Below, in pieces: positions 18 through 10,786 of a stretch of 64,000 nucleotides of DNA. A program made the position numbers and the translations under genes. Each line of letters starts with the position of its first letter. The first letter of the stretch is position 1. The notes beneath the pieces are model-generated. The model was not told where the DNA came from, searched no databases, and saw only the letters and a program-made list of their open reading frames with translations. Source of the stretch: an uncultured Candidatus Saccharibacteria bacterium (GTDB lineage Bacteria; Patescibacteriota; Minisyncoccia; Phycocordibacterales; UBA6065); NCBI GenBank assembly GCA_964495425.1, contig CAZBVG010000002.1, positions 14,570-78,569 of the forward strand, in the 5' to 3' direction.

Positions 18-1559
18 TTAGAGATCTCTGAAAACCTCGATTTTTGCACCCAGAGAATTGAGACGTGAGGCTAGATCTTCATAACCTCTGTTTATGTTGT
101 AGACATTTCGAAGTACCGATGTGCCTTCTGCGGCAAGCATGGCAATCATAATTACAACTGACGGTCTGAGTGCTGGAGGACAGACAATTTCAGTGGCCTT
201 AAATTTAGTTGGTCCTTTGATGTAAAAGCGATGTGGATCTGCAAGGATGGTTTCAGCGCGCATTTTGTCGAGTTCCTTGTAATAGATGGCTCGTTCTTCA
301 TAGAGCCAGTCGTGAATAAACGTTTCTCCTTCTGCAACAGCGCCAATAACTACAAAGAAGGGAAGGTTGTCGGCATTAATAGACGGATATGGATTGGCAT
401 GGATTTTTTCTTCAAGGGCTTTGAGTTTTGAGGGTGCGGTTTGGATATCAACAAGATTTGCTCGTCCGTTGTTTGCTTTGTAACGCTTCGTTATTTTGTA
501 TTTGAAACCCATTTTCTCGAGTTTGAGTAATTCGAGTTCGAGAAAGTCGATCGGTGCGCGTTCAATAGTAATTGCCGAGTTGGTAACAATTGCAACTGCA
601 ATTAAAGACATGGCCTCAATTGGATCTTCGGTAGGGTAGTATTCAATATTCTTACGTATCTCTGTATCTACTCCATGAATAGTCATGGTTGAGGTGCCAA
701 TACCCTCTATTTTTACTCCCAAAAGCTCGAGATAAAATGCCACATCTTGTACTTGATAATTAGCAGAAGCAAATTTAAGAGTCGTTGTGCCTGGTATGAG
801 TGCCGCTGCCATGAGCATAGTCTCAGTTACCATGTCTCCAGCTTCGTACATGATGATCTCTCGATTCTTTTTAAGGCCATTGTGTGAAATATGATAGTAC
901 TCTGAGCTTGTCTCAATTTTTACTCCCACTTTTTCAAGCGCGTAAAAATATGGTTTTACGGTGCGAGAACCGAGTCTACAACCGCCTGCTTGAGGTAGAT
1001 CAAACTTATTCATCCTATGAATAAGTGAACCCATCATCATAATAATTGTTCGAGTCTTTGCCGCAGAATCATAGGCAATATGTTTCATATCGAATTTCTC
1101 TGGCGGGGTGATATGGAGATCCGATTCCTTCCATTCGATTTTTACGCCAATTGATTCGAGAACTTCAGTAATTCTGTGCACCTCCTCAATTTTTGGTGCA
1201 TTTTTAATAATCGTGGTACCTCGATTAAGAAGTGATGCGCACAATATACCTACGGCACCATTTTTTGAGGTGCGCACTTTAATTGAGCCAGATAGTTTAC
1301 GTCCACCTTCGATGCGAAAATTCACGGTGCCGCCTTTAGAAATAGAAACAATTTCGTGGTTGAGTGCCTCTGAGAGTTTCGCCAATGTTTCCGTTGAAAG
1401 ATTTTGTTCACCTTTTTCTATACGTGCAATGACAGATTGAGTCGTACCAATTTTAGAACCCAACTCTGATTGGGTCATATGTCGGTCCTCTCGCAAACGA
1501 GCAATCATATGGCCAATTGACGAAAGGGCAGCAGGCTTTGTTTCTTTGGATGTAGGCAT
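18..1559 (-). CDS. murA: UDP-N-acetylglucosamine 1-carboxyvinyltransferase (MurA) with an N-terminal XRE-type helix-turn-helix domain
   Basis: Residues about 14-68 (HMIARLREDRHMTQSELGSKIGTTQSVIARIEKGEQNLSTETLAKLSEAL) fit an XRE HTH. The remainder aligns to MurA along its length, including the active-site Cys region QAGGCRLGSRTV. ATG taken at 1557-1559; the ORF track extends to 1595. Confidence 0.8.
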   Translation of the reverse strand: MPTSKETKPAALSSIGHMIARLREDRHMTQSELGSKIGTTQSVIARIEKGEQNLSTETLAKLSEALNHEIVSISKGGTVNFRIEGGRKLSGSIKVRTSKNGAVGILCASLLNRGTTIIKNAPKIEEVHRITEVLESIGVKIEWKESDLHITPPEKFDMKHIAYDSAAKTRTIIMMMGSLIHRMNKFDLPQAGGCRLGSRTVKPYFYALEKVGVKIETSSEYYHISHNGLKKNREIIMYEAGDMVTETMLMAAALIPGTTTLKFASANYQVQDVAFYLELLGVKIEGIGTSTMTIHGVDTEIRKNIEYYPTEDPIEAMSLIAVAIVTNSAITIERAPIDFLELELLKLEKMGFKYKITKRYKANNGRANLVDIQTAPSKLKALEEKIHANPYPSINADNLPFFVVIGAVAEGETFIHDWLYEERAIYYKELDKMRAETILADPHRFYIKGPTKFKATEIVCPPALRPSVVIMIAMLAAEGTSVLRNVYNINRGYEDLASRLNSLGAKIEVFRDL

Positions 1560-1652
1560 GTGGACGTAGTTAGAGTAATGGTAGTAATATAGCATATATG
1601 CTATATTATTCTCAAGCTGTGGATAATAAAAAAGCTGCCATGCGGCAGCTTG

Positions 1653-2030
1653 TCAAAATCCGTTCGCGCTACTTATAAGTCCGTGCAGAACCTTGAAGCA
1701 GTGTGAAATAACTTTTGGTCCAGGATTTCGGTTAAGCGACACTTCTCGATCATCCATGTGAGGTATCTTCTTCAGAAGGTCATGGGTGATAGAAAGGCCA
1801 ATTTCTTCTTCAGCCTTCATCACACACCAAATTCGAAACCATATCATTGAGGGTATGGATTGGTCAGAATACGTGTTTCGAACCACCGTGAAGAAATAAT
1901 GGAGATTCGGGATCTCCTTCATCGTTTTCCTGTAATCATCAGCACACAACCGGGGATTTCGGGAATAACATTCAAGGCCAACTCGCTCGTCGGCCACAGT
2001 AAAGGTAATGAGATCAAGTATTGTAGACAT
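1653..2030 (-). CDS. hypothetical protein
   Basis: 125-aa ORF in the gap between murA and mreB; no recognisable motif. Confidence 0.35.
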   Translation of the reverse strand: MSTILDLITFTVADERVGLECYSRNPRLCADDYRKTMKEIPNLHYFFTVVRNTYSDQSIPSMIWFRIWCVMKAEEEIGLSITHDLLKKIPHMDDREVSLNRNPGPKVISHCFKVLHGLISSANGF

Positions 2031-2073: not shown

Positions 2074-3135
2074 GTGTCAACTATCGCAAAGCGCTATAAA
2101 AAGCGTATAGTATGGCCATCTATGGCTTTATTCGCGAAGAAACTCGGAATTGATTTAGGAACAGCAAATACGCTCGTGTTTGTGCCAGGTAAAGGCATTG
2201 TGCTCAATGAGCCTTCAGTTGTGGCTGTTTCAGAACAGGACAACAAAATTATGGCTGTCGGTGTTGAAGCAAAGAACATGATTGGTCGAACTCCAGAATC
2301 CATCATTGCGTATCGCCCAATGAAGGATGGTGTTATTGCTGATTATCGCGTTACCGAAGCGATGCTTCGATATTTCATTGATAAAGCGCTCGGCAAATGG
2401 AATATTTGGAAGCCAGAAGTGCTTGTATCTGTACCTGCGGGCATTACTTCAACAGAACGACGTGCGGTAGTTGAAGCCGCAATTCGTGCGGGAGCAAAAA
2501 GTGCGTATGTGGTTAAGGAACCAATTCTTGCTGCAATTGGTGCCGGTATTCCTATTCAAGAAGCTCGAGGACATATGGTAGTAGATATTGGTGGTGGAAC
2601 GACTGACGTCGCTGTAATTTCTCTTGGCGGCATCGTCTCTTCAACTTCTGTGAAATGTGCAGGTAACAGAATAGATGCAGCGATCGCTGACTATATAAAG
2701 AAAACTTTTAACCTCGCCATTGGAGATAAAACAGCTGAGGATATCAAAATAAATATCGGCTCTGCAGTACCGCTCGAAGAAGAACTCACTATGATTATTA
2801 AAGGGCGCGATTTTATTTCAGGTCTCCCTCGTTCGACTGAAATTAAGACTAATGAAATTGTGAAAGCGATTGGTCGTGAGCTTCGCGATATGATCAAGGC
2901 AATTAAGGATGTGCTCCAAGAAACTCCACCTGAACTTGCAGCAGATATTATTGACCATGGCATTATTATGACCGGCGGTTCATCGATGCTTCGAAATCTC
3001 CCTGAGCTGGTGTTTCGACGCACGGGTGTAAAAGCAATTCTTGCTGAAGATCCGCTGTACTGTGTAGCAAAGGGAACTGGTATTGCTCTTGAACATCTTG
3101 ATGTATACAAGAGAACTATTATTGCAAAAAGATAG
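2074..3135 (+). CDS. mreB: rod shape-determining protein MreB (paralog 1; alternative start at 2122)
   Basis: LGIDLGTANTLVFV and DIGGGTTDVAVISLGG actin-like ATPase motifs; similar along its length to the second mreB at 6939. Confidence 0.85.
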   Translation: MSTIAKRYKKRIVWPSMALFAKKLGIDLGTANTLVFVPGKGIVLNEPSVVAVSEQDNKIMAVGVEAKNMIGRTPESIIAYRPMKDGVIADYRVTEAMLRYFIDKALGKWNIWKPEVLVSVPAGITSTERRAVVEAAIRAGAKSAYVVKEPILAAIGAGIPIQEARGHMVVDIGGGTTDVAVISLGGIVSSTSVKCAGNRIDAAIADYIKKTFNLAIGDKTAEDIKINIGSAVPLEEELTMIIKGRDFISGLPRSTEIKTNEIVKAIGRELRDMIKAIKDVLQETPPELAADIIDHGIIMTGGSSMLRNLPELVFRRTGVKAILAEDPLYCVAKGTGIALEHLDVYKRTIIAKR

Positions 3136-6938: not shown

Positions 6939-8006
6939 ATGGCAAACGGATTTTTAAACAGATTGTATAGCGCGTTTTCTCACGACATCGGGATAGACCT
7001 CGGTACGGCTAATACGCTGGTTTATGTTAAAGGCCAAGGAATCGTCATAAATGAACCGTCGGTTGTTGCGGTTAATCAAAAAACCGGCCGTGTTGTAGCT
7101 GTTGGTTCTCAGGCCAAGGATATGCTCGGACGAACACCGGGACACATCGTCGCTGTGAGACCGCTAGTTGATGGCGTCATTTCAGATTTTGAAGTTGCTG
7201 AGGAAATGATTGTGTATCTTATAAATAAGGCTCAGAAGGAGGCAAAGAAGAAGTTTTTTGGACCTCGTGTGATTGTTGGAATTCCTTCGGGTGTTACAAA
7301 CGTTGAGGCTCGCGCGGTACGTGATGCTACAAAAAATGCAGGGGCACGAGAAGTGCATGTGGTTGAACAGCCAATGGCTGCTGCTATTGGTATTAAACTT
7401 CCTATTCATGATCCAGCTGGAAATATGGTGATTGATATTGGAGGAGGTACAACTGATATTGCCGTAATCTCACTTGGCGGCGTTGTTCGCTCAAAATCAC
7501 TTAAGATTGCGGGTGATAAATTGAATAACGATATTATTTCGTATATTCGAAACGAGTTTAAGATTTTGATTGGCGAAAAGACCGCTGAGGACGTAAAAAT
7601 AGCTATTGGTGTCATTGTTCCTGATGAAATGCCTCATGAAGCTGCGATTCGAGGACGAGATCTTGTTACCGGACTTCCACGTGAAGTGGTTTTAACAGAT
7701 GCAGATATTCGAGAGGCGGTGTCACAGTCGATTGATAATCTCGTTGATTCTGTAAAAGAGGTGCTTGAAACAACTCCGCCTGAAATTTTGGCAGATATAA
7801 TGCATAAGGGTATCTATCTTGTAGGAGGAGGAGCGCTTATCCGCGGTCTCGATAAACTAATTGAAGAATTTGTAAAGATTCCAGTTCACATTGCAGATGA
7901 TCCATTGACCGCTGTAGCTCGTGGCGCAGGAATTATTTTGGAAGATTTAGAAAAGTATCAAGACGTGCTCATTGCAAACGAAGATGACTTACCTAAAGCG
8001 AAGTAA
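6939..8006 (+). CDS. mreB: rod shape-determining protein MreB (paralog 2, first gene of mreBCD-mrdA)
   Basis: IGIDLGTANTLVYV and DIGGGTTDIAVISLGG; followed directly by mreC, mreD and PBP2. Confidence 0.9.
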   Translation: MANGFLNRLYSAFSHDIGIDLGTANTLVYVKGQGIVINEPSVVAVNQKTGRVVAVGSQAKDMLGRTPGHIVAVRPLVDGVISDFEVAEEMIVYLINKAQKEAKKKFFGPRVIVGIPSGVTNVEARAVRDATKNAGAREVHVVEQPMAAAIGIKLPIHDPAGNMVIDIGGGTTDIAVISLGGVVRSKSLKIAGDKLNNDIISYIRNEFKILIGEKTAEDVKIAIGVIVPDEMPHEAAIRGRDLVTGLPREVVLTDADIREAVSQSIDNLVDSVKEVLETTPPEILADIMHKGIYLVGGGALIRGLDKLIEEFVKIPVHIADDPLTAVARGAGIILEDLEKYQDVLIANEDDLPKAK

Positions 8007-8784
8007 TGTAACTGGCAGAAAGTCTCGAACGAGAACGGTCGGCATACTAGCCGGCCTTGTCGGGTTATTTGCTGTACATTTTTTCTTTCCAACTTTTTTC
8101 CCAACAATTCTGTATCCTGTCACGTCTGTATTTTGGAAGTCTGAGTCATCATCAGTCGGTTTTTTTGTTCGAATGGTAAAGATTGTTCAGTCTAAGTACA
8201 GTCTCGTAAAAGAAAATCGACGCCTCTCAGATGAAATTGCATCTCGTGATGCTTCTATGTTGCTGCTCGATACCTTGCGCTCTGAAAATGAGGAACTAAA
8301 AAAGAACGTAGGCAGGACGGGGCAGGGCAAAGATGTGTTGGGTGTGATTTTATCTCGTCCACCAATATCACCCTATGACACACTTGTAATTGATATTGGT
8401 TCAAGTGATGGTGTTGCAGTAGGCAATAAAGTGTATACATCGGGTGACACACTCGTCGGTGATGTGGTGGAAGTATATGAGCATTCATCAAAAATAAGTT
8501 TGTTCTCGACACCAGGAAGAGAGATTCCAATTTTAGTCGGTTCTTCAACGGTGGCTACACAAGCAATTGGTAAAGGAGGTGGAAATTTTTCCGCACAATT
8601 ACCCGCTGATGTTCGTATCAATAAAGGGGATACAATCATCACAACCCAGATTCGCCCTCATGCTTTTGGTGTTGTCCAAGAAATTCTCATAGATTCATCC
8701 GATTCTCTCCAGACAATCCTTTTCAAAGCGCCTATCAATATTCATGAATTTAGATTTGTTCAAGTAGATATATCAGCAAAATAA
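7972..8784 (+). CDS. mreC: rod shape-determining protein MreC
   Basis: N-terminal TM helix, a coiled-coil segment (ENRRLSDEIASRD...ENEELKKN) and a C-terminal beta domain; positioned between mreB and mreD. Confidence 0.75.
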   Translation: MQTKMTYLKRSNVTGRKSRTRTVGILAGLVGLFAVHFFFPTFFPTILYPVTSVFWKSESSSVGFFVRMVKIVQSKYSLVKENRRLSDEIASRDASMLLLDTLRSENEELKKNVGRTGQGKDVLGVILSRPPISPYDTLVIDIGSSDGVAVGNKVYTSGDTLVGDVVEVYEHSSKISLFSTPGREIPILVGSSTVATQAIGKGGGNFSAQLPADVRINKGDTIITTQIRPHAFGVVQEILIDSSDSLQTILFKAPINIHEFRFVQVDISAK

Positions 8785-9067: not shown

Positions 9068-10786
9068 GTGAACCTTTTTCGCCGACCAAAAAACTGCGTT
9101 CGAAACGAAATCGACCCAGACGAAATTTTTCTTGATTCAAAGAATATTCCTGGTTTTGATGTCCATCAATTTGAAGGGCGTCTTGAAAAGCCGATTTCAA
9201 TCACGACAATTGTGTCTTTGTCAGTTGCTTTTTGTATTCTAGCACTGGTGTTACTGGGTAAGGCTTGGCTTCTTCAGGCAAAGGACGGAGCAGAATATGC
9301 AGCTATGAGCGAGAATAATACGCTGGACGAAACGACAATATTTTCGGAACGTGGCGCAATATTCGATCGAAATGGTGTGAAGCTTGCATGGAATGCGGTC
9401 GATCCTGAAGAGCCCGACTTTTCGAGCAGGGTGTATATTCAGGATTCTGGTTTTGGCCACGTGCTTGGCTATATTAAGTATCCAACAAAGGACAAGCAGG
9501 GAAACTATTATCGTAAAAATTTTGAGGGCGTTTCAGGCATCGAAAAGTATTTCAACGATGTGCTTCAGGGCGAACACGGGCTTCGTATACTCACAACCGA
9601 CGCTCTGGGTAATATTGAATCTGAGTCTGTCGTTCGCCCCGCAAAGGATGGTGAGAACCTCAATCTATCTCTCGATGCAAACATTCAAGAGAAACTCCAT
9701 GAATCTATTGCAGGACTTGCGCAGAGAGTAGGATTTTCCGGTGGAGGAGGAATAATTATGGATGTGTATACGGGCGAAGTGATTGCGCTTACAAGTTATC
9801 CTGAATATAAAAGCGGAATCATGTCCGATGGTTCAGATAAGAAAACTATTACTGACTACCTCACTGATACACGGAAGCCGCTTTTTAACCGCGTGCTTTC
9901 AGGACTTTATACGCCGGGATCGATTGTAAAGCCGTATGTTGCACTCGCGGCACTTGAAGAAAATACTATCGACCCAAACAAGGAAATTATTTCAACAGGG
10001 TCAATAAGTATTCCAAATCCTTATGACAAAACCAAGAAAACAGTATTCATGGACTGGAAGGCGCACGGTGCAGTTGATATGAGAAAGGCGATTGCGGTAT
10101 CTTCAAACGTTTATTTTTATGAAGTTGGAGGAGGATTTGAGGGGCAAAAGGGTTTGGGTATTGATCGGCTCAATAAGTACTTTTCGATGATGGGCTTTGG
10201 AAAATCTACTGACTCTGGATTCTTTACAAGCCCAGCTGGTACAGTACCTTCTCCAACCTGGAAAGATAAAGTTTTTCCAGGTGATCCATGGCGTATTGGT
10301 GATACATACTTTACGTCAATCGGTCAGTACGGTTTCCAAGTAACTCCGTTTCAAATGGTTCGAGCTGTAGCGTCGATTGCAAATGGGGGAACATATCTCA
10401 TGCCATCGATACTTAAGTTTTCTACGTCGTCTCAGACACACATTATCTCGAGCGATTTGCCTGTGAGCGCATCGAATATTCAAATAATTCGTGAAGGTAT
10501 GCGACAGGGAGCTCAAACCGGTACCGCAAGCGGTCTTAATGTTCCATACGTCAAAGTAGCGGCAAAAACGGGTACTGCGGAGCTTGGAGTATCAAAAGCG
10601 TTTGTTAATTCCTGGGTAGCTGGCTTTTTCCCGTATGAAAGCCCGCGCTATGCGTTTGTGGTGATGATGGAACATGGTCCACGAACAAACATTTACGGTG
10701 CCACCTTTGTGATGAGAGAGCTGCTTGATTGGATGAATGTAAATGCCCCTGAGTATTTGGCGGTGCCAGAAAGTACTCAAAACTAG
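9068..10786 (+). CDS. mrdA: penicillin-binding protein 2 (class B transpeptidase, elongasome)
   Basis: Single N-terminal TM helix, and a transpeptidase domain with STGS (SxxK-type), SSN and KTGTA motifs. Gene order mreBCD-pbp2. Confidence 0.8.
   Translation: MNLFRRPKNCVRNEIDPDEIFLDSKNIPGFDVHQFEGRLEKPISITTIVSLSVAFCILALVLLGKAWLLQAKDGAEYAAMSENNTLDETTIFSERGAIFDRNGVKLAWNAVDPEEPDFSSRVYIQDSGFGHVLGYIKYPTKDKQGNYYRKNFEGVSGIEKYFNDVLQGEHGLRILTTDALGNIESESVVRPAKDGENLNLSLDANIQEKLHESIAGLAQRVGFSGGGGIIMDVYTGEVIALTSYPEYKSGIMSDGSDKKTITDYLTDTRKPLFNRVLSGLYTPGSIVKPYVALAALEENTIDPNKEIISTGSISIPNPYDKTKKTVFMDWKAHGAVDMRKAIAVSSNVYFYEVGGGFEGQKGLGIDRLNKYFSMMGFGKSTDSGFFTSPAGTVPSPTWKDKVFPGDPWRIGDTYFTSIGQYGFQVTPFQMVRAVASIANGGTYLMPSILKFSTSSQTHIISSDLPVSASNIQIIREGMRQGAQTGTASGLNVPYVKVAAKTGTAELGVSKAFVNSWVAGFFPYESPRYAFVVMMEHGPRTNIYGATFVMRELLDWMNVNAPEYLAVPESTQN

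What the first reader, a model, noticed from the sequence alone, without database searches (positions are those of the whole stretch)
18..1559. MurA fused to an N-terminal XRE-family helix-turn-helix domain
The first-committed-step peptidoglycan enzyme carries a roughly 70-aa HTH_XRE module in-frame at its N-terminus (start MPTSKETKP...). The catalytic Cys (GGCRLG) is retained, so the enzyme should still be active. A DNA-binding domain on MurA suggests autoregulation or moonlighting as a transcription factor linking cell-wall precursor flux to gene expression.
Basis: partly seen in the sequence, partly recalled or inferred. Interest (0 to 1): 0.55.

Follow-up and report, generated by a model that had tools for sequence, protein, structure and literature searches.

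The report
MurA enzyme fused to its own repressor
The first enzyme of bacterial cell-wall synthesis (MurA) here carries a DNA-binding domain, and a matching palindromic DNA site sits on its own promoter in hundreds of species, so the enzyme most likely switches off its own gene, a kind of control I found no description of for cell-wall synthesis.

Summary
One uninterrupted minus-strand ORF (start ATG 1559, stop 18-20, 513 aa) encodes an XRE-type helix-turn-helix domain (aa 10-67), a poorly conserved 12-aa linker and a full-length MurA domain. All core catalytic residues, including the Cys, are present.

The fusion is not an assembly artefact. The identical protein occurs on 7 contigs from 3 samples. 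Full-length fused homologues occur in at least several hundred species genomes of Patescibacteria (Paceibacteria, Saccharibacteria, Uhrbacteria, Kaiserbacteria) and in cultured Actinomycetota (Nocardioides, Pimelobacter, Janibacter, Ornithinimicrobium, Serinicoccus, Knoellia).

The new finding is a perfect 24-bp palindrome (1585-1608), the longest in the window, overlapping the -10 of the murA promoter.
- An 18-bp version, TAT-NN-CA-N4-TG-NN-ATA, lies just upstream of the start codon in 72 of 76 fused loci.
- It is almost absent elsewhere in 539 kb of fetched loci.
- Its variable dinucleotide changes symmetrically between clades, together with one recognition-helix residue.
- It is missing in the three relatives that have lost the HTH.

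Best reading: an active MurA that represses its own promoter, a "trigger enzyme". Modulation by a ligand is plausible but untested. I found no description in the literature available to me. Interest 0.65; new variant of a known kind.

The parts
18..1559 (-). HTH-MurA coding sequence (513 aa plus stop codon at 18-20), starting at ATG 1559-1557
   Evidence: ORF list; Pfam and NCBIfam domains; homologue alignment fixes the N-terminus; the ATG at 1595 lies inside the operator, upstream of the -10
1359..1532 (-). XRE-type helix-turn-helix domain (aa 10-67), with recognition helix about aa 41-48 (QSVIARIE)
   Evidence: Pfam HTH_3 E 9e-14. The AF2 model has four helices: 10-25, 30-37, 41-48, 56-65. 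Conserved about as well as the enzyme (59% against 63% mean pairwise identity)
1326..1358 (-). Linker (aa 68-78) between the HTH and the MurA domain
   Evidence: Low AF2 confidence (aa 72-76 below 50) and low conservation (36% mean identity)
21..1325 (-). MurA (enolpyruvyl transferase) domain, aa 79-513
   Evidence: phmmer against PDB MurA chains, 7.8e-53, end to end; Foldseek TM 0.86-0.93 to MurA structures; NF006873 above its cutoff
978..980 (-). Codon of the catalytic Cys194 (equivalent to E. coli Cys115) in the GGCRLGSR loop
   Evidence: Alignment with E. coli MurA. K22, N23, R91, C115, R120, D305, R371 and R397 are invariant in all 81 family members
1585..1608 (.). Perfect 24-bp palindrome TAATATAGCATA|TATGCTATATTA, with the conserved 18-bp core TATAGCATATATGCTATA at 1588-1605. 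Predicted operator of the HTH-MurA protein
   Evidence: It is the longest perfect palindrome in the window, and 1 of 200 shuffles reaches this arm length. The core is conserved upstream of 72 of 76 fused genes and co-varies by clade. It is absent in the unfused relatives
1586..1615 (-). Predicted sigma-70-type promoter of murA: -35 TTGAGA (1615-1610), 18-nt spacer, extended -10 TGcTATATT (1594-1586)
   Evidence: Consensus scan, 10 of 12 matches with TG. 70 of 72 homologous operators carry a TAnnnT hexamer in the right arm
1618..1626 (-). Exact DnaA-box consensus TTATCCACA next to the -35. Possibly a second regulatory input; its function is unknown
   Evidence: 3 copies in 64 kb against 0.45 expected. 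A box with at most 1 mismatch lies at a similar position (17-28 nt upstream of the operator, one of them on the opposite strand at -13) in 14 of 72 loci, against about 1 expected
1632..1651 (-). Terminator-like hairpin plus T-run ending the upstream ORF (1653-2030). It isolates murA as its own transcription unit
   Evidence: 8-bp stem with 5 GC pairs, followed by a T tract

Best explanation
The gene encodes a catalytically competent MurA (UDP-GlcNAc enolpyruvyl transferase) whose N-terminal XRE-type HTH domain binds, as a symmetric dimer, an 18-bp palindromic operator (TAT-NN-CA-N4-TG-NN-ATA). That operator overlaps the extended -10 element of the gene's own promoter. When enough protein is present it occupies the operator, blocks RNA polymerase and shuts down its own transcription. 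The enzyme that commits precursors to peptidoglycan therefore sets its own level by negative autoregulation.

Shown here (by computation): the fusion; the intact catalytic residues; the operator's position, conservation, clade-wise symmetric covariation, specificity to this promoter, and loss together with the HTH.

Inferred: DNA binding itself, the dimeric state, and repression rather than activation. The last rests only on the overlap with the -10 and on the start codon lying 6-11 nt after the -10 in most loci, which makes the transcripts leaderless.

Speculative extension: MurA ligands that drive its open-to-closed transition (UDP-GlcNAc, PEP, or the feedback ligand UDP-MurNAc) change operator affinity. 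That would make it a true flux-sensing trigger enzyme like BirA, PutA or NadR.
For: Fusion and enzyme:
- Both domains lie in one ORF.
- The fold is MurA.
- K22, N23, R91, C115, R120, D305, R371 and R397 equivalents are invariant in 81 of 81 family members.
- The organism makes peptidoglycan: mreB, mreC, PBP2, murG, ftsW/rodA and a DD-carboxypeptidase are in the window. No other murA is in the 64-kb window.

Operator:
- A perfect 24-bp palindrome lies at 1585-1608, inside the TTGAGA-18-TGcTATATT promoter.
- 72 of 76 fused loci score at least 10 of 12 on the 18-bp model immediately upstream of the start.
- In 539 kb of loci, sites scoring at least 11 occur 70 times at this position and only twice elsewhere.
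- No other site scoring at least 11 of 12 is in the window or in the extra 10 kb (a few score 10).

Covariation:
- The half-site is TATAGCA in Paceibacteria, TATATCA in Saccharibacteria, TATCTCA in Actinomycetota and TATACCA in an Uhrbacteria locus. The change is mirrored in both arms.
- Recognition-helix residue T (xTQS) goes with the AG half-site in 30 of 33 loci; S (xSQS) never does.

Loss and conservation:
- The three unfused members (L017, L024, L027), nested within the fused clade, lack the palindrome. L017 keeps only the -10 half.
- The HTH is as conserved as the enzyme (59% against 63%), while the linker is not (36%).

Promoter geometry:
- 70 of 72 operators contain a TAnnnT -10 hexamer in the right arm.
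- The distance from operator to start codon has its mode at 8-13 nt.
Against: - There are no binding, expression or activity data; everything is comparative.
- The protein-DNA covariation is confounded by phylogeny: a few clades means a few independent events.
- Part of the right-arm conservation, including the invariant TG, can be explained by promoter function alone.
- How a dimer would form is unknown. The HTH has only four helices and a flexible linker, and I know of no evidence that canonical MurA works as an obligate dimer (own knowledge).
- Two fused loci (L026, L029) lack a proximal site.
- The UDP-GlcNAc-binding loop differs from canonical MurA (K160E, S162G, G164T/M) and the TIGR01072 equivalog cutoff is missed, so the substrate is not proven.
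- The rest of the genome was not searched for other operators or a second murA.
Confidence: 0.72

Rival explanations
1. The HTH is a protein-protein interaction module, not a DNA binder. As in RodZ, whose XRE-like HTH contacts MreB, it would tether MurA to the MreB/elongasome machinery encoded next door.
For: mreB is the divergent neighbour here (2074-3135) and in some relatives (L007, L024). That RodZ uses an HTH to bind MreB is my own knowledge.
Against: - Pfam matches are to DNA-binding XRE families (HTH_3, HTH_31, HTH_19, HTH_26), not to the RodZ-type HTH_25.
- This model does not explain a conserved, co-varying palindrome at the promoter, nor its loss together with the HTH.
- The mreB neighbourhood is not conserved: glyA is the divergent neighbour in Nanosynbacter, and fadAB and dxs flank the gene in Janibacter.
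Confidence: 0.06
2. The palindrome is only a promoter feature (an extended -10 and its mirror image, for example a bidirectional promoter), or it is bound by a different factor. The HTH of MurA would then act elsewhere or be functionless.
For: The right arm contains TG-n-TAnnnT in 70 of 72 loci. Divergent genes lie upstream in several clades.
Against: - The left arm has no promoter role in the window, where the upstream gene is co-directional and ends in a terminator.
- In 70% GC Actinomycetota the AT-rich palindrome persists with a different half-site.
- Unfused relatives keep a promoter but lose the palindrome.
- A recognition-helix residue tracks the half-site.
- The site is essentially unique to this promoter.
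- The HTH is under the same constraint as the enzyme.
Confidence: 0.1
3. The MurA-like domain is a catalytically silent sensor, as in BzdR, where an XRE HTH is fused to a shikimate-kinase-like effector domain. The protein would be purely a transcription factor, and a separate canonical MurA would do the chemistry. This is most plausible for the Actinomycetota copies.
For: - The TIGR01072 equivalog cutoff is not reached.
- The UDP-sugar loop is altered.
- RefSeq names several members only 'helix-turn-helix domain-containing protein'.
- The actinobacterial gene is not in a cell-wall gene context.
Against: - Eight catalytic or substrate residues, including Cys115, Asp305 and Lys22, are invariant in 81 of 81 members.
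- Unfused members of the same clade exist as plain MurA.
- No other murA is in the 64-kb window of a peptidoglycan-making organism.
- Small Patescibacteria genomes are unlikely to keep two copies (own knowledge).
Confidence: 0.08
4. The palindrome acts as an RNA hairpin (7-bp stem, 4-nt loop) in the 5' leader, and the symmetric covariation reflects base pairing rather than protein binding.
For: Compensatory changes at positions 4-5 and 14-15 preserve complementarity.
Against: - In most loci the start codon is only 8-13 nt after the palindrome, and the palindrome contains the -10, so most of the palindrome would lie upstream of the transcription start and could not form the hairpin.
- The outer and inner positions are sequence-invariant from 30% to 74% GC genomes, and no G-U type changes were evident among the 18-mers listed (not counted).
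- In Paceibacteria the centre is itself palindromic, which an RNA loop does not need.
Confidence: 0.02
5. The fusion is an assembly or frameshift artefact that joins a small regulator to murA.
For: None found.
Against: The identical protein is on 7 contigs from 3 samples. There are more than 120 full-length homologues in independent assemblies, including isolate genomes with RefSeq WP_ accessions.
Confidence: 0.01

Closest known systems
Trigger enzymes with a fused DNA-binding domain: BirA (biotin ligase/repressor), PutA (proline dehydrogenase/repressor), NadR, archaeal RbkR (riboflavin kinase/regulator)
   Same: An active metabolic enzyme is fused to an N-terminal DNA-binding domain. The protein binds a palindromic operator at promoters of its own pathway (PutA represses its own gene, own knowledge), and the enzyme domain doubles as the sensor. 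RbkR was also found by comparative genomics, and some lineages later lost the DNA-binding domain, as L017, L024 and L027 have here (PMC5397151).
   Different: The enzyme family (enolpyruvyl transferase) and pathway (peptidoglycan) differ. [quoted passage not shown] Only self-regulation is seen so far, and ligand dependence is untested.
Canonical MurA (E. coli / Enterobacter cloacae MurA; MurAA and MurAB of Firmicutes)
   Same: The same two-domain fold (TM 0.86-0.93). The Cys115 loop and K22, N23, R91, R120, D305, R371 and R397 are conserved.
   Different: - Only 25-31% identical to E. coli MurA; the fused family forms a separate long-branched clade.
- It has an extra N-terminal HTH and an insertion around aa 355-385.
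- The K160/S162-G164 loop is altered.
- The known controls of MurA are post-translational: UDP-MurNAc feedback (PDB 3su9 and 3swd, listed), and ClpCP/ReoM proteolysis and CwlM activation (own knowledge). I know of none that is transcriptional autoregulation by MurA itself.
BzdR (XRE HTH fused to a shikimate-kinase-like domain; NCBIfam PRK08154 'anaerobic benzoate catabolism transcriptional regulator')
   Same: An XRE HTH is joined by a linker to an enzyme-fold effector domain. The HTH of the window protein weakly matches this model (NF006015, E 2.5e-7).
   Different: In BzdR the enzyme-like domain is a non-catalytic ligand sensor (own knowledge). Here every core catalytic residue is kept.
RodZ (XRE-like HTH that binds MreB)
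   Same: An XRE-like HTH in a cell-wall/elongasome protein, with the gene next to mreB in this window.
   Different: RodZ's HTH is used for protein contact, and RodZ is a membrane protein. The window protein has no HTH_25 match, and it comes with a conserved DNA palindrome.

Membership tests
MurA (UDP-N-acetylglucosamine 1-carboxyvinyltransferase) | Two-domain enolpyruvyl-transferase fold, closer to MurA than to AroA or NikO | tested here: met
   AF2 model pLDDT 87. Foldseek: MurA structures E 1e-38 to 1e-32 with TM 0.86-0.93, NikO 5e-31, AroA 1e-26. phmmer: MurA 7.8e-53, NikO 5e-24.
MurA (UDP-N-acetylglucosamine 1-carboxyvinyltransferase) | Catalytic loop Cys115 (or Asp), plus Lys22, Arg120, Asp305 and Arg397 | tested here: met
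   All are present in the window protein (K99, C194, R199, D397, R491) and invariant in 81 of 81 family members.
MurA (UDP-N-acetylglucosamine 1-carboxyvinyltransferase) | Score above the curated family cutoffs | tested here: inconclusive
   NF006873 subfamily: 324.8 against a cutoff of 297, met. TIGR01072 equivalog: 311.9 against 392.7, not met. NF009470: 214 against 552, not met.
MurA (UDP-N-acetylglucosamine 1-carboxyvinyltransferase) | UDP-GlcNAc-binding residues (K160, S162-G164, P121) | tested here: inconclusive
   Replaced by E/G/D/T(M) and T, but invariantly so within the family (YEAGDTVTE). The alignment in this loop may be imprecise.
MurA (UDP-N-acetylglucosamine 1-carboxyvinyltransferase) | Enolpyruvyl transfer from PEP to UDP-GlcNAc; the sole or essential murA of the organism | not testable with these tools
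   No assay is possible. There is only one murA in the 64-kb window, and the whole genome is not available.
XRE-family HTH DNA-binding domain (Pfam HTH_3) | Sequence match above the gathering threshold and a helical bundle with a helix-turn-helix | tested here: met
   HTH_3: 51.7 bits against a cutoff of 23. The AF2 model has helices 10-25, 30-37, 41-48 and 56-65.
XRE-family HTH DNA-binding domain (Pfam HTH_3) | Binds a dyad-symmetric operator as a dimer | tested here: inconclusive
   A conserved, co-varying 18-bp palindrome lies at the gene's own promoter. Physical binding and the oligomeric state were not tested.
Trigger enzyme (enzyme plus transcription regulator in one protein) | One polypeptide that is both catalytically active and controls transcription | not testable with these tools
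   The sequence predicts both activities. Neither has been measured.
Trigger enzyme (enzyme plus transcription regulator in one protein) | Regulatory output depends on the substrate, product or catalytic state | not tested
   No evidence either way. UDP-MurNAc/PEP 'dormant' complexes of canonical MurA exist in the PDB (3su9, 3swd).
RodZ-like HTH | HTH_25-type domain followed by a transmembrane segment | tested here: not met
   There is no HTH_25 hit among 7 Pfam matches. The HTH is followed directly by the MurA domain.

The most novel reading that the evidence does not exclude
HTH-MurA is a true flux sensor. Binding of UDP-GlcNAc/PEP, or of the pathway feedback ligand UDP-MurNAc, to the enzyme domain would switch operator binding, so that the peptidoglycan precursor pool directly sets murA transcription across a large share of Patescibacteria and some Actinomycetota. 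That would be the first trigger enzyme in cell-wall synthesis. In the Paceibacteria closest to the window it may be combined with DnaA-box control that couples wall synthesis to replication initiation.
Probability: 0.3. Interest if true: 0.82.

Novelty: new variant of a known kind. Interest (0 to 1): 0.65.

Why it matters
MurA is the committed step of peptidoglycan synthesis and the target of fosfomycin. The ways its activity is known to be controlled are post-translational: feedback by UDP-MurNAc, proteolysis via ClpCP/ReoM, and activation by CwlM.

A MurA that carries its own DNA-binding domain and operator would be a different, very compact solution: a one-protein feedback loop. It appears to be the standard form of the enzyme in the Patescibacteria lineages sampled here. 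These organisms have tiny genomes and few regulators, and how they control growth is largely unknown.

The same fusion occurs in culturable Actinomycetota (Nocardioides, Pimelobacter simplex, Janibacter, Ornithinimicrobium, Serinicoccus), and Saccharibacteria are now genetically tractable. The hypothesis can therefore be tested directly. The predicted operator also gives an immediate handle for reporters, EMSA and ChIP.

The result would also extend the trigger-enzyme concept from cofactor and amino-acid metabolism to cell-envelope biogenesis.

Tried and rejected
- **Generic palindrome score.** A "best inverted repeat" score on upstream regions separated fused loci from controls only weakly (median 7 against 5), because unrelated hairpins compete. 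I replaced it with an explicit 18-bp model.
- **Apparent control hits.** Control upstream regions scoring 11-12 appear to be the same murA site seen from overlapping spurious ORFs. One search scanned whole loci and found only 2 such sites away from murA.
- **Literature.** Five searches for a described HTH-MurA fusion and four follow-up reads found nothing relevant. The hits were author names or unrelated words such as "Muranotrichea". The library holds only open-access PMC and bioRxiv papers, so an earlier description cannot be excluded.
- **Second murA.** tblastn of the MurA domain against the 64-kb window found none.
- **Regulon.** No further operator copy scoring at least 11 of 12 is in the window or in the 10 kb beyond its end.
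- **Representative-library search.** phmmer with aa 1-140 returned mostly fragments. It shows that by my estimate about 90 of the best 150 clusters (50% identity) span the junction, but it gives no clean family size.
- **Rival readings considered and rejected.** RodZ-like, RNA-hairpin, bidirectional-promoter, silent-sensor and artefact readings (see the rivals).
- **Neighbouring ORF.** Pfam gave no family for the 125-aa ORF at 1653-2030 upstream.
Full report
**1. The observation**

Translated from 1559 it is 513 aa.

Pfam finds HTH_3 at aa 19-67 (E 9e-14), with related XRE-type HTH models, and EPSP_synthase at aa 84-498 (E 3e-42). NCBIfam places the C-terminal part in the MurA subfamily NF006873 (324.8 bits, cutoff 297). 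It stays below the strict equivalog cutoff of TIGR01072 (311.9 against 392.7).

Residues 80-509 align end to end with crystallised MurA proteins (best 7.8e-53). NikO (5e-24) and AroA are far weaker.

An AlphaFold2 model built on 23 homologues has pLDDT 87 and pTM 0.79. It shows a four-helix HTH (helices 10-25, 30-37, 41-48, 56-65) and a low-confidence linker (aa 72-76 below 50), followed by the MurA fold. The model superposes on about 40 MurA structures with target-normalised TM 0.86-0.93. No PDB entry carries an HTH on MurA.

**2. The fusion is not an artefact and is not rare**

All of the best 120 proteins in the 5.8-billion-protein collection are 71-100% identical over 98-100% of the query, are 495-550 aa long, and carry both Pfam domains. 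The identical protein is on 7 contigs from three samples (ERZ27309396, SRR6747781, SRR6747782).

Of the best 80 loci, 77 are fused. Judged by record titles and sequence clustering, they come from:
- Paceibacteria/Parcubacteria, Taylorbacteria, Kaiserbacteria, Uhrbacteria and Saccharibacteria (including Nanosynbacter);
- cultured Actinomycetota: Nocardioides, Ornithinimicrobium, Janibacter, Knoellia and Lapillicoccus.

Many MAG titles say "Saccharibacteria" by default, so my clade labels follow sequence clustering.

RefSeq calls the actinobacterial proteins either "UDP-N-acetylglucosamine 1-carboxyvinyltransferase" or just "helix-turn-helix domain-containing protein". Examples are WP_106818878 and WP_056716671; members also occur in Pimelobacter simplex and Serinicoccus.

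All 77 fused ORFs are continuous.

**3. The enzyme part looks active**

I aligned the window protein and the 80 loci against E. coli MurA (fetched). The equivalents of K22, N23, R91, C115, R120, D305, R371 and R397 are invariant in all 81. In the window protein these include K99, C194 (codon 978-980), R199, D397 and R491.

The family is nevertheless divergent. It is 25-31% identical to E. coli MurA and forms a single long-branched clade in a neighbour-joining tree. The loop that contacts the UDP-sugar in E. coli (K160, S162-G164) reads E-A-G-D-T/M, and this is invariant within the family.

The window also encodes two MreB paralogues, MreC, a PBP2-type transpeptidase, MurG, an FtsW/RodA protein and a DD-carboxypeptidase. 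The organism therefore makes peptidoglycan and needs a MurA. No second murA is in the 64-kb window; the extra 10 kb was not searched by tblastn.

**4. The operator**

Between the terminator-like hairpin of the upstream ORF (1632-1651) and the start codon lies a promoter-like site: TTGAGA, 18 nt, TGcTATATT (1615-1586, 10 of 12 matches).

Inside it sits a perfect 24-bp palindrome, TAATATAGCATA|TATGCTATATTA (1585-1608). It is the longest perfect palindrome in the window, and only 1 of 200 shuffles reaches that arm length. There is one copy only.

The ATG at 1595, used by the deposited 525-aa model, is inside this palindrome and upstream of the -10. The true start is therefore almost certainly 1559, where the homologues also begin.

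**5. Comparative test of the operator**

Upstream regions of the fused genes show the same element almost everywhere. A single 18-bp model fits all clades: TAT-NN-CA-N4-TG-NN-ATA, with the two NN dinucleotides complementary to each other.

- 72 of 76 testable fused loci score at least 10 of 12 immediately upstream of the start.
- Over all 539 kb of fetched loci, sites scoring at least 11 occur 70 times at that position and twice elsewhere. One of those two lies 227 nt upstream of the fused gene of L029.

The variable dinucleotide changes between clades, and it changes in both arms:

| Clade | 18-bp operator |
|---|---|
| Paceibacteria | TATAGCA....TGCTATA |
| Saccharibacteria | TATATCA....TGATATA |
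| Actinomycetota (genomes about 60-74% GC) | TATCTCA....TGAGWTA |
| Uhrbacteria locus L040 | TATACCA....TGGTATA |

The second residue of the motif preceding the recognition helix tracks this change. The xTQS form goes with AG half-sites in 30 of 33 loci. The xSQS form goes with AT, AC or CT and never with AG. This covariation is confounded by phylogeny, but it is what a specific protein-DNA contact predicts.

Three members of the same MurA clade have no HTH (L017, L024, L027; 72-74% identical, nested inside the fused Paceibacteria). They have no separate HTH gene nearby and no palindrome. L017 keeps only the right half, ATGCTATAA, that is, the -10. The HTH and the left arm therefore disappear together.

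The HTH is as conserved as the enzyme (mean pairwise identity 59% against 63%), whereas the linker is not (36%).

**6. Promoter geometry**

In 70 of 72 loci the right arm contains a TAnnnT hexamer (operator positions 15-20 or 17-22). The invariant TG at positions 12-13 is in the place of an extended -10 TG.

The distance from the end of the operator to the start codon has a sharp mode at 8-13 nt, in roughly 49 of 71 loci. The start codon is then 6-11 nt after the -10, and the transcripts are probably leaderless. In the window the distance is 28 nt, which gives a short leader with no obvious Shine-Dalgarno sequence.

A protein sitting on this site would occlude the -10, hence repression. This geometry also argues against an RNA-hairpin reading, since most of the palindrome would not be transcribed.

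**7. Mechanism proposed**

The protein is an active MurA. Through its HTH, and as a symmetric dimer, it binds the operator on its own promoter and represses it. This is negative autoregulation of the committed enzyme of peptidoglycan synthesis.

- Shown, by computation only: the architecture, the catalytic residues, and the operator's existence, position, specificity, covariation and co-loss with the HTH.
- Inferred: binding, dimerisation, and the sign of regulation.
- Speculative: MurA ligands modulate binding. Canonical MurA closes on UDP-GlcNAc and forms tight UDP-MurNAc/PEP complexes (for example PDB 3su9 and 3swd, listed).

No other target was seen in about 74 kb of this genome, and gene neighbours are not conserved between clades. 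The evidence therefore points to self-regulation rather than a regulon.

**8. Comparison with what is known**

In how it works, the closest class is the "trigger enzymes", which have a fused DNA-binding domain: BirA, PutA, NadR and archaeal RbkR. [quoted passage not shown] RbkR also lost its DNA-binding domain in some lineages, as seen here.

A peptidoglycan enzyme of this kind, carrying an XRE-type HTH, would be a new variant. BzdR (XRE HTH plus a shikimate-kinase-like sensor) is similar in architecture, but there the enzyme fold is not catalytic (own knowledge). RodZ uses an XRE-like HTH for MreB contact (own knowledge), but the window protein shows no HTH_25 match.

The known controls of MurA are post-translational (own knowledge).

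Five literature searches and four follow-up reads found no description of an HTH-MurA fusion. The library covers only open-access and bioRxiv papers, and the architecture is of course visible in public databases under generic names.

**9. Verdict**

Ligand sensing and wider regulatory roles remain open.

- Novelty: new variant of a known kind.
- Interest: 0.65.
- Confidence in "active MurA plus autorepressor": about 0.7.

Noticed in passing
window 1618-1626 (minus strand); also L001, L002, L003, L004, L007, L013 (exact) and L008, L010, L012, L018, L030, L036, L050 (1 mismatch): An exact DnaA-box consensus, TTATCCACA, sits just upstream of the -35 of the murA promoter. The window has 3 copies against 0.45 expected. 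A box with at most 1 mismatch lies 17-28 nt before the operator (in L012 on the opposite strand, at -13) in 14 of 72 loci, against about 1 expected, mostly in the Paceibacteria closest to the window. This may couple murA transcription to DnaA and the cell cycle, or it may be the site of another factor.
   Followed up: partly
window 1557-1595: The deposited protein (P0001, 525 aa) starts at the ATG at 1595. That ATG lies inside the operator palindrome and upstream of the predicted -10. The homologues and the promoter geometry point to ATG 1559 (513 aa), so the database N-terminus is probably 12 residues too long.
   Followed up: yes
L045, L057-L059, L062-L064, L070-L072, L075, L077-L079 compared with L036-L080 (Saccharibacteria): In a neighbour-joining tree the fused MurA of Actinomycetota is sister to that of Saccharibacteria (65% identity, against 54% to Paceibacteria). 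Saccharibacteria live as epibionts on Actinomycetota (own knowledge), so horizontal transfer of gene plus operator between the partners is plausible. The direction is unknown. In Janibacter the gene lies between fadAB and dxs, which is not a cell-wall context.
   Followed up: partly
L017 (match from 979), L024 and L027 (match from 3001): These are three members of the same MurA clade without the HTH and without the palindrome, nested among fused Paceibacteria. This looks like secondary loss of the regulatory module. L017 retains only the -10 half of the former operator.
   Followed up: yes
loci L004, L007-L012, L014, L019, L020, L032-L036, L042-L080 (upstream of the fused gene): The start codon lies only 6-11 nt after the -10-like hexamer in most loci. 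This implies leaderless murA mRNAs in Saccharibacteria, Actinomycetota and many Paceibacteria. The window copy instead has a leader of roughly 20 nt with no visible Shine-Dalgarno sequence.
   Followed up: partly
window 2074-3135 (+) and 6939-8006 (+), with 7972-8784 and 9068-10786: There are two MreB paralogues within 5 kb. One is divergent from the murA region. The other heads an mreB-mreC-(83 aa)-PBP2 cluster. This is notable for a small Patescibacteria genome.
   Followed up: no
window 1653-2030 (minus strand): A 125-aa ORF between mreB and murA ends in a clean terminator-like hairpin (1632-1651). It has no Pfam family, but it is called as a gene on all three contigs that carry the locus. 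Its function is unknown.
   Followed up: partly
L026 and L029: These fused genes have no proximal operator. L026 has only a 12-nt palindrome, TATAAGCTTATA, about 60 nt upstream. In L029 the only good site (TATATCACACTTGATATA) lies 227 nt upstream.
   Followed up: no
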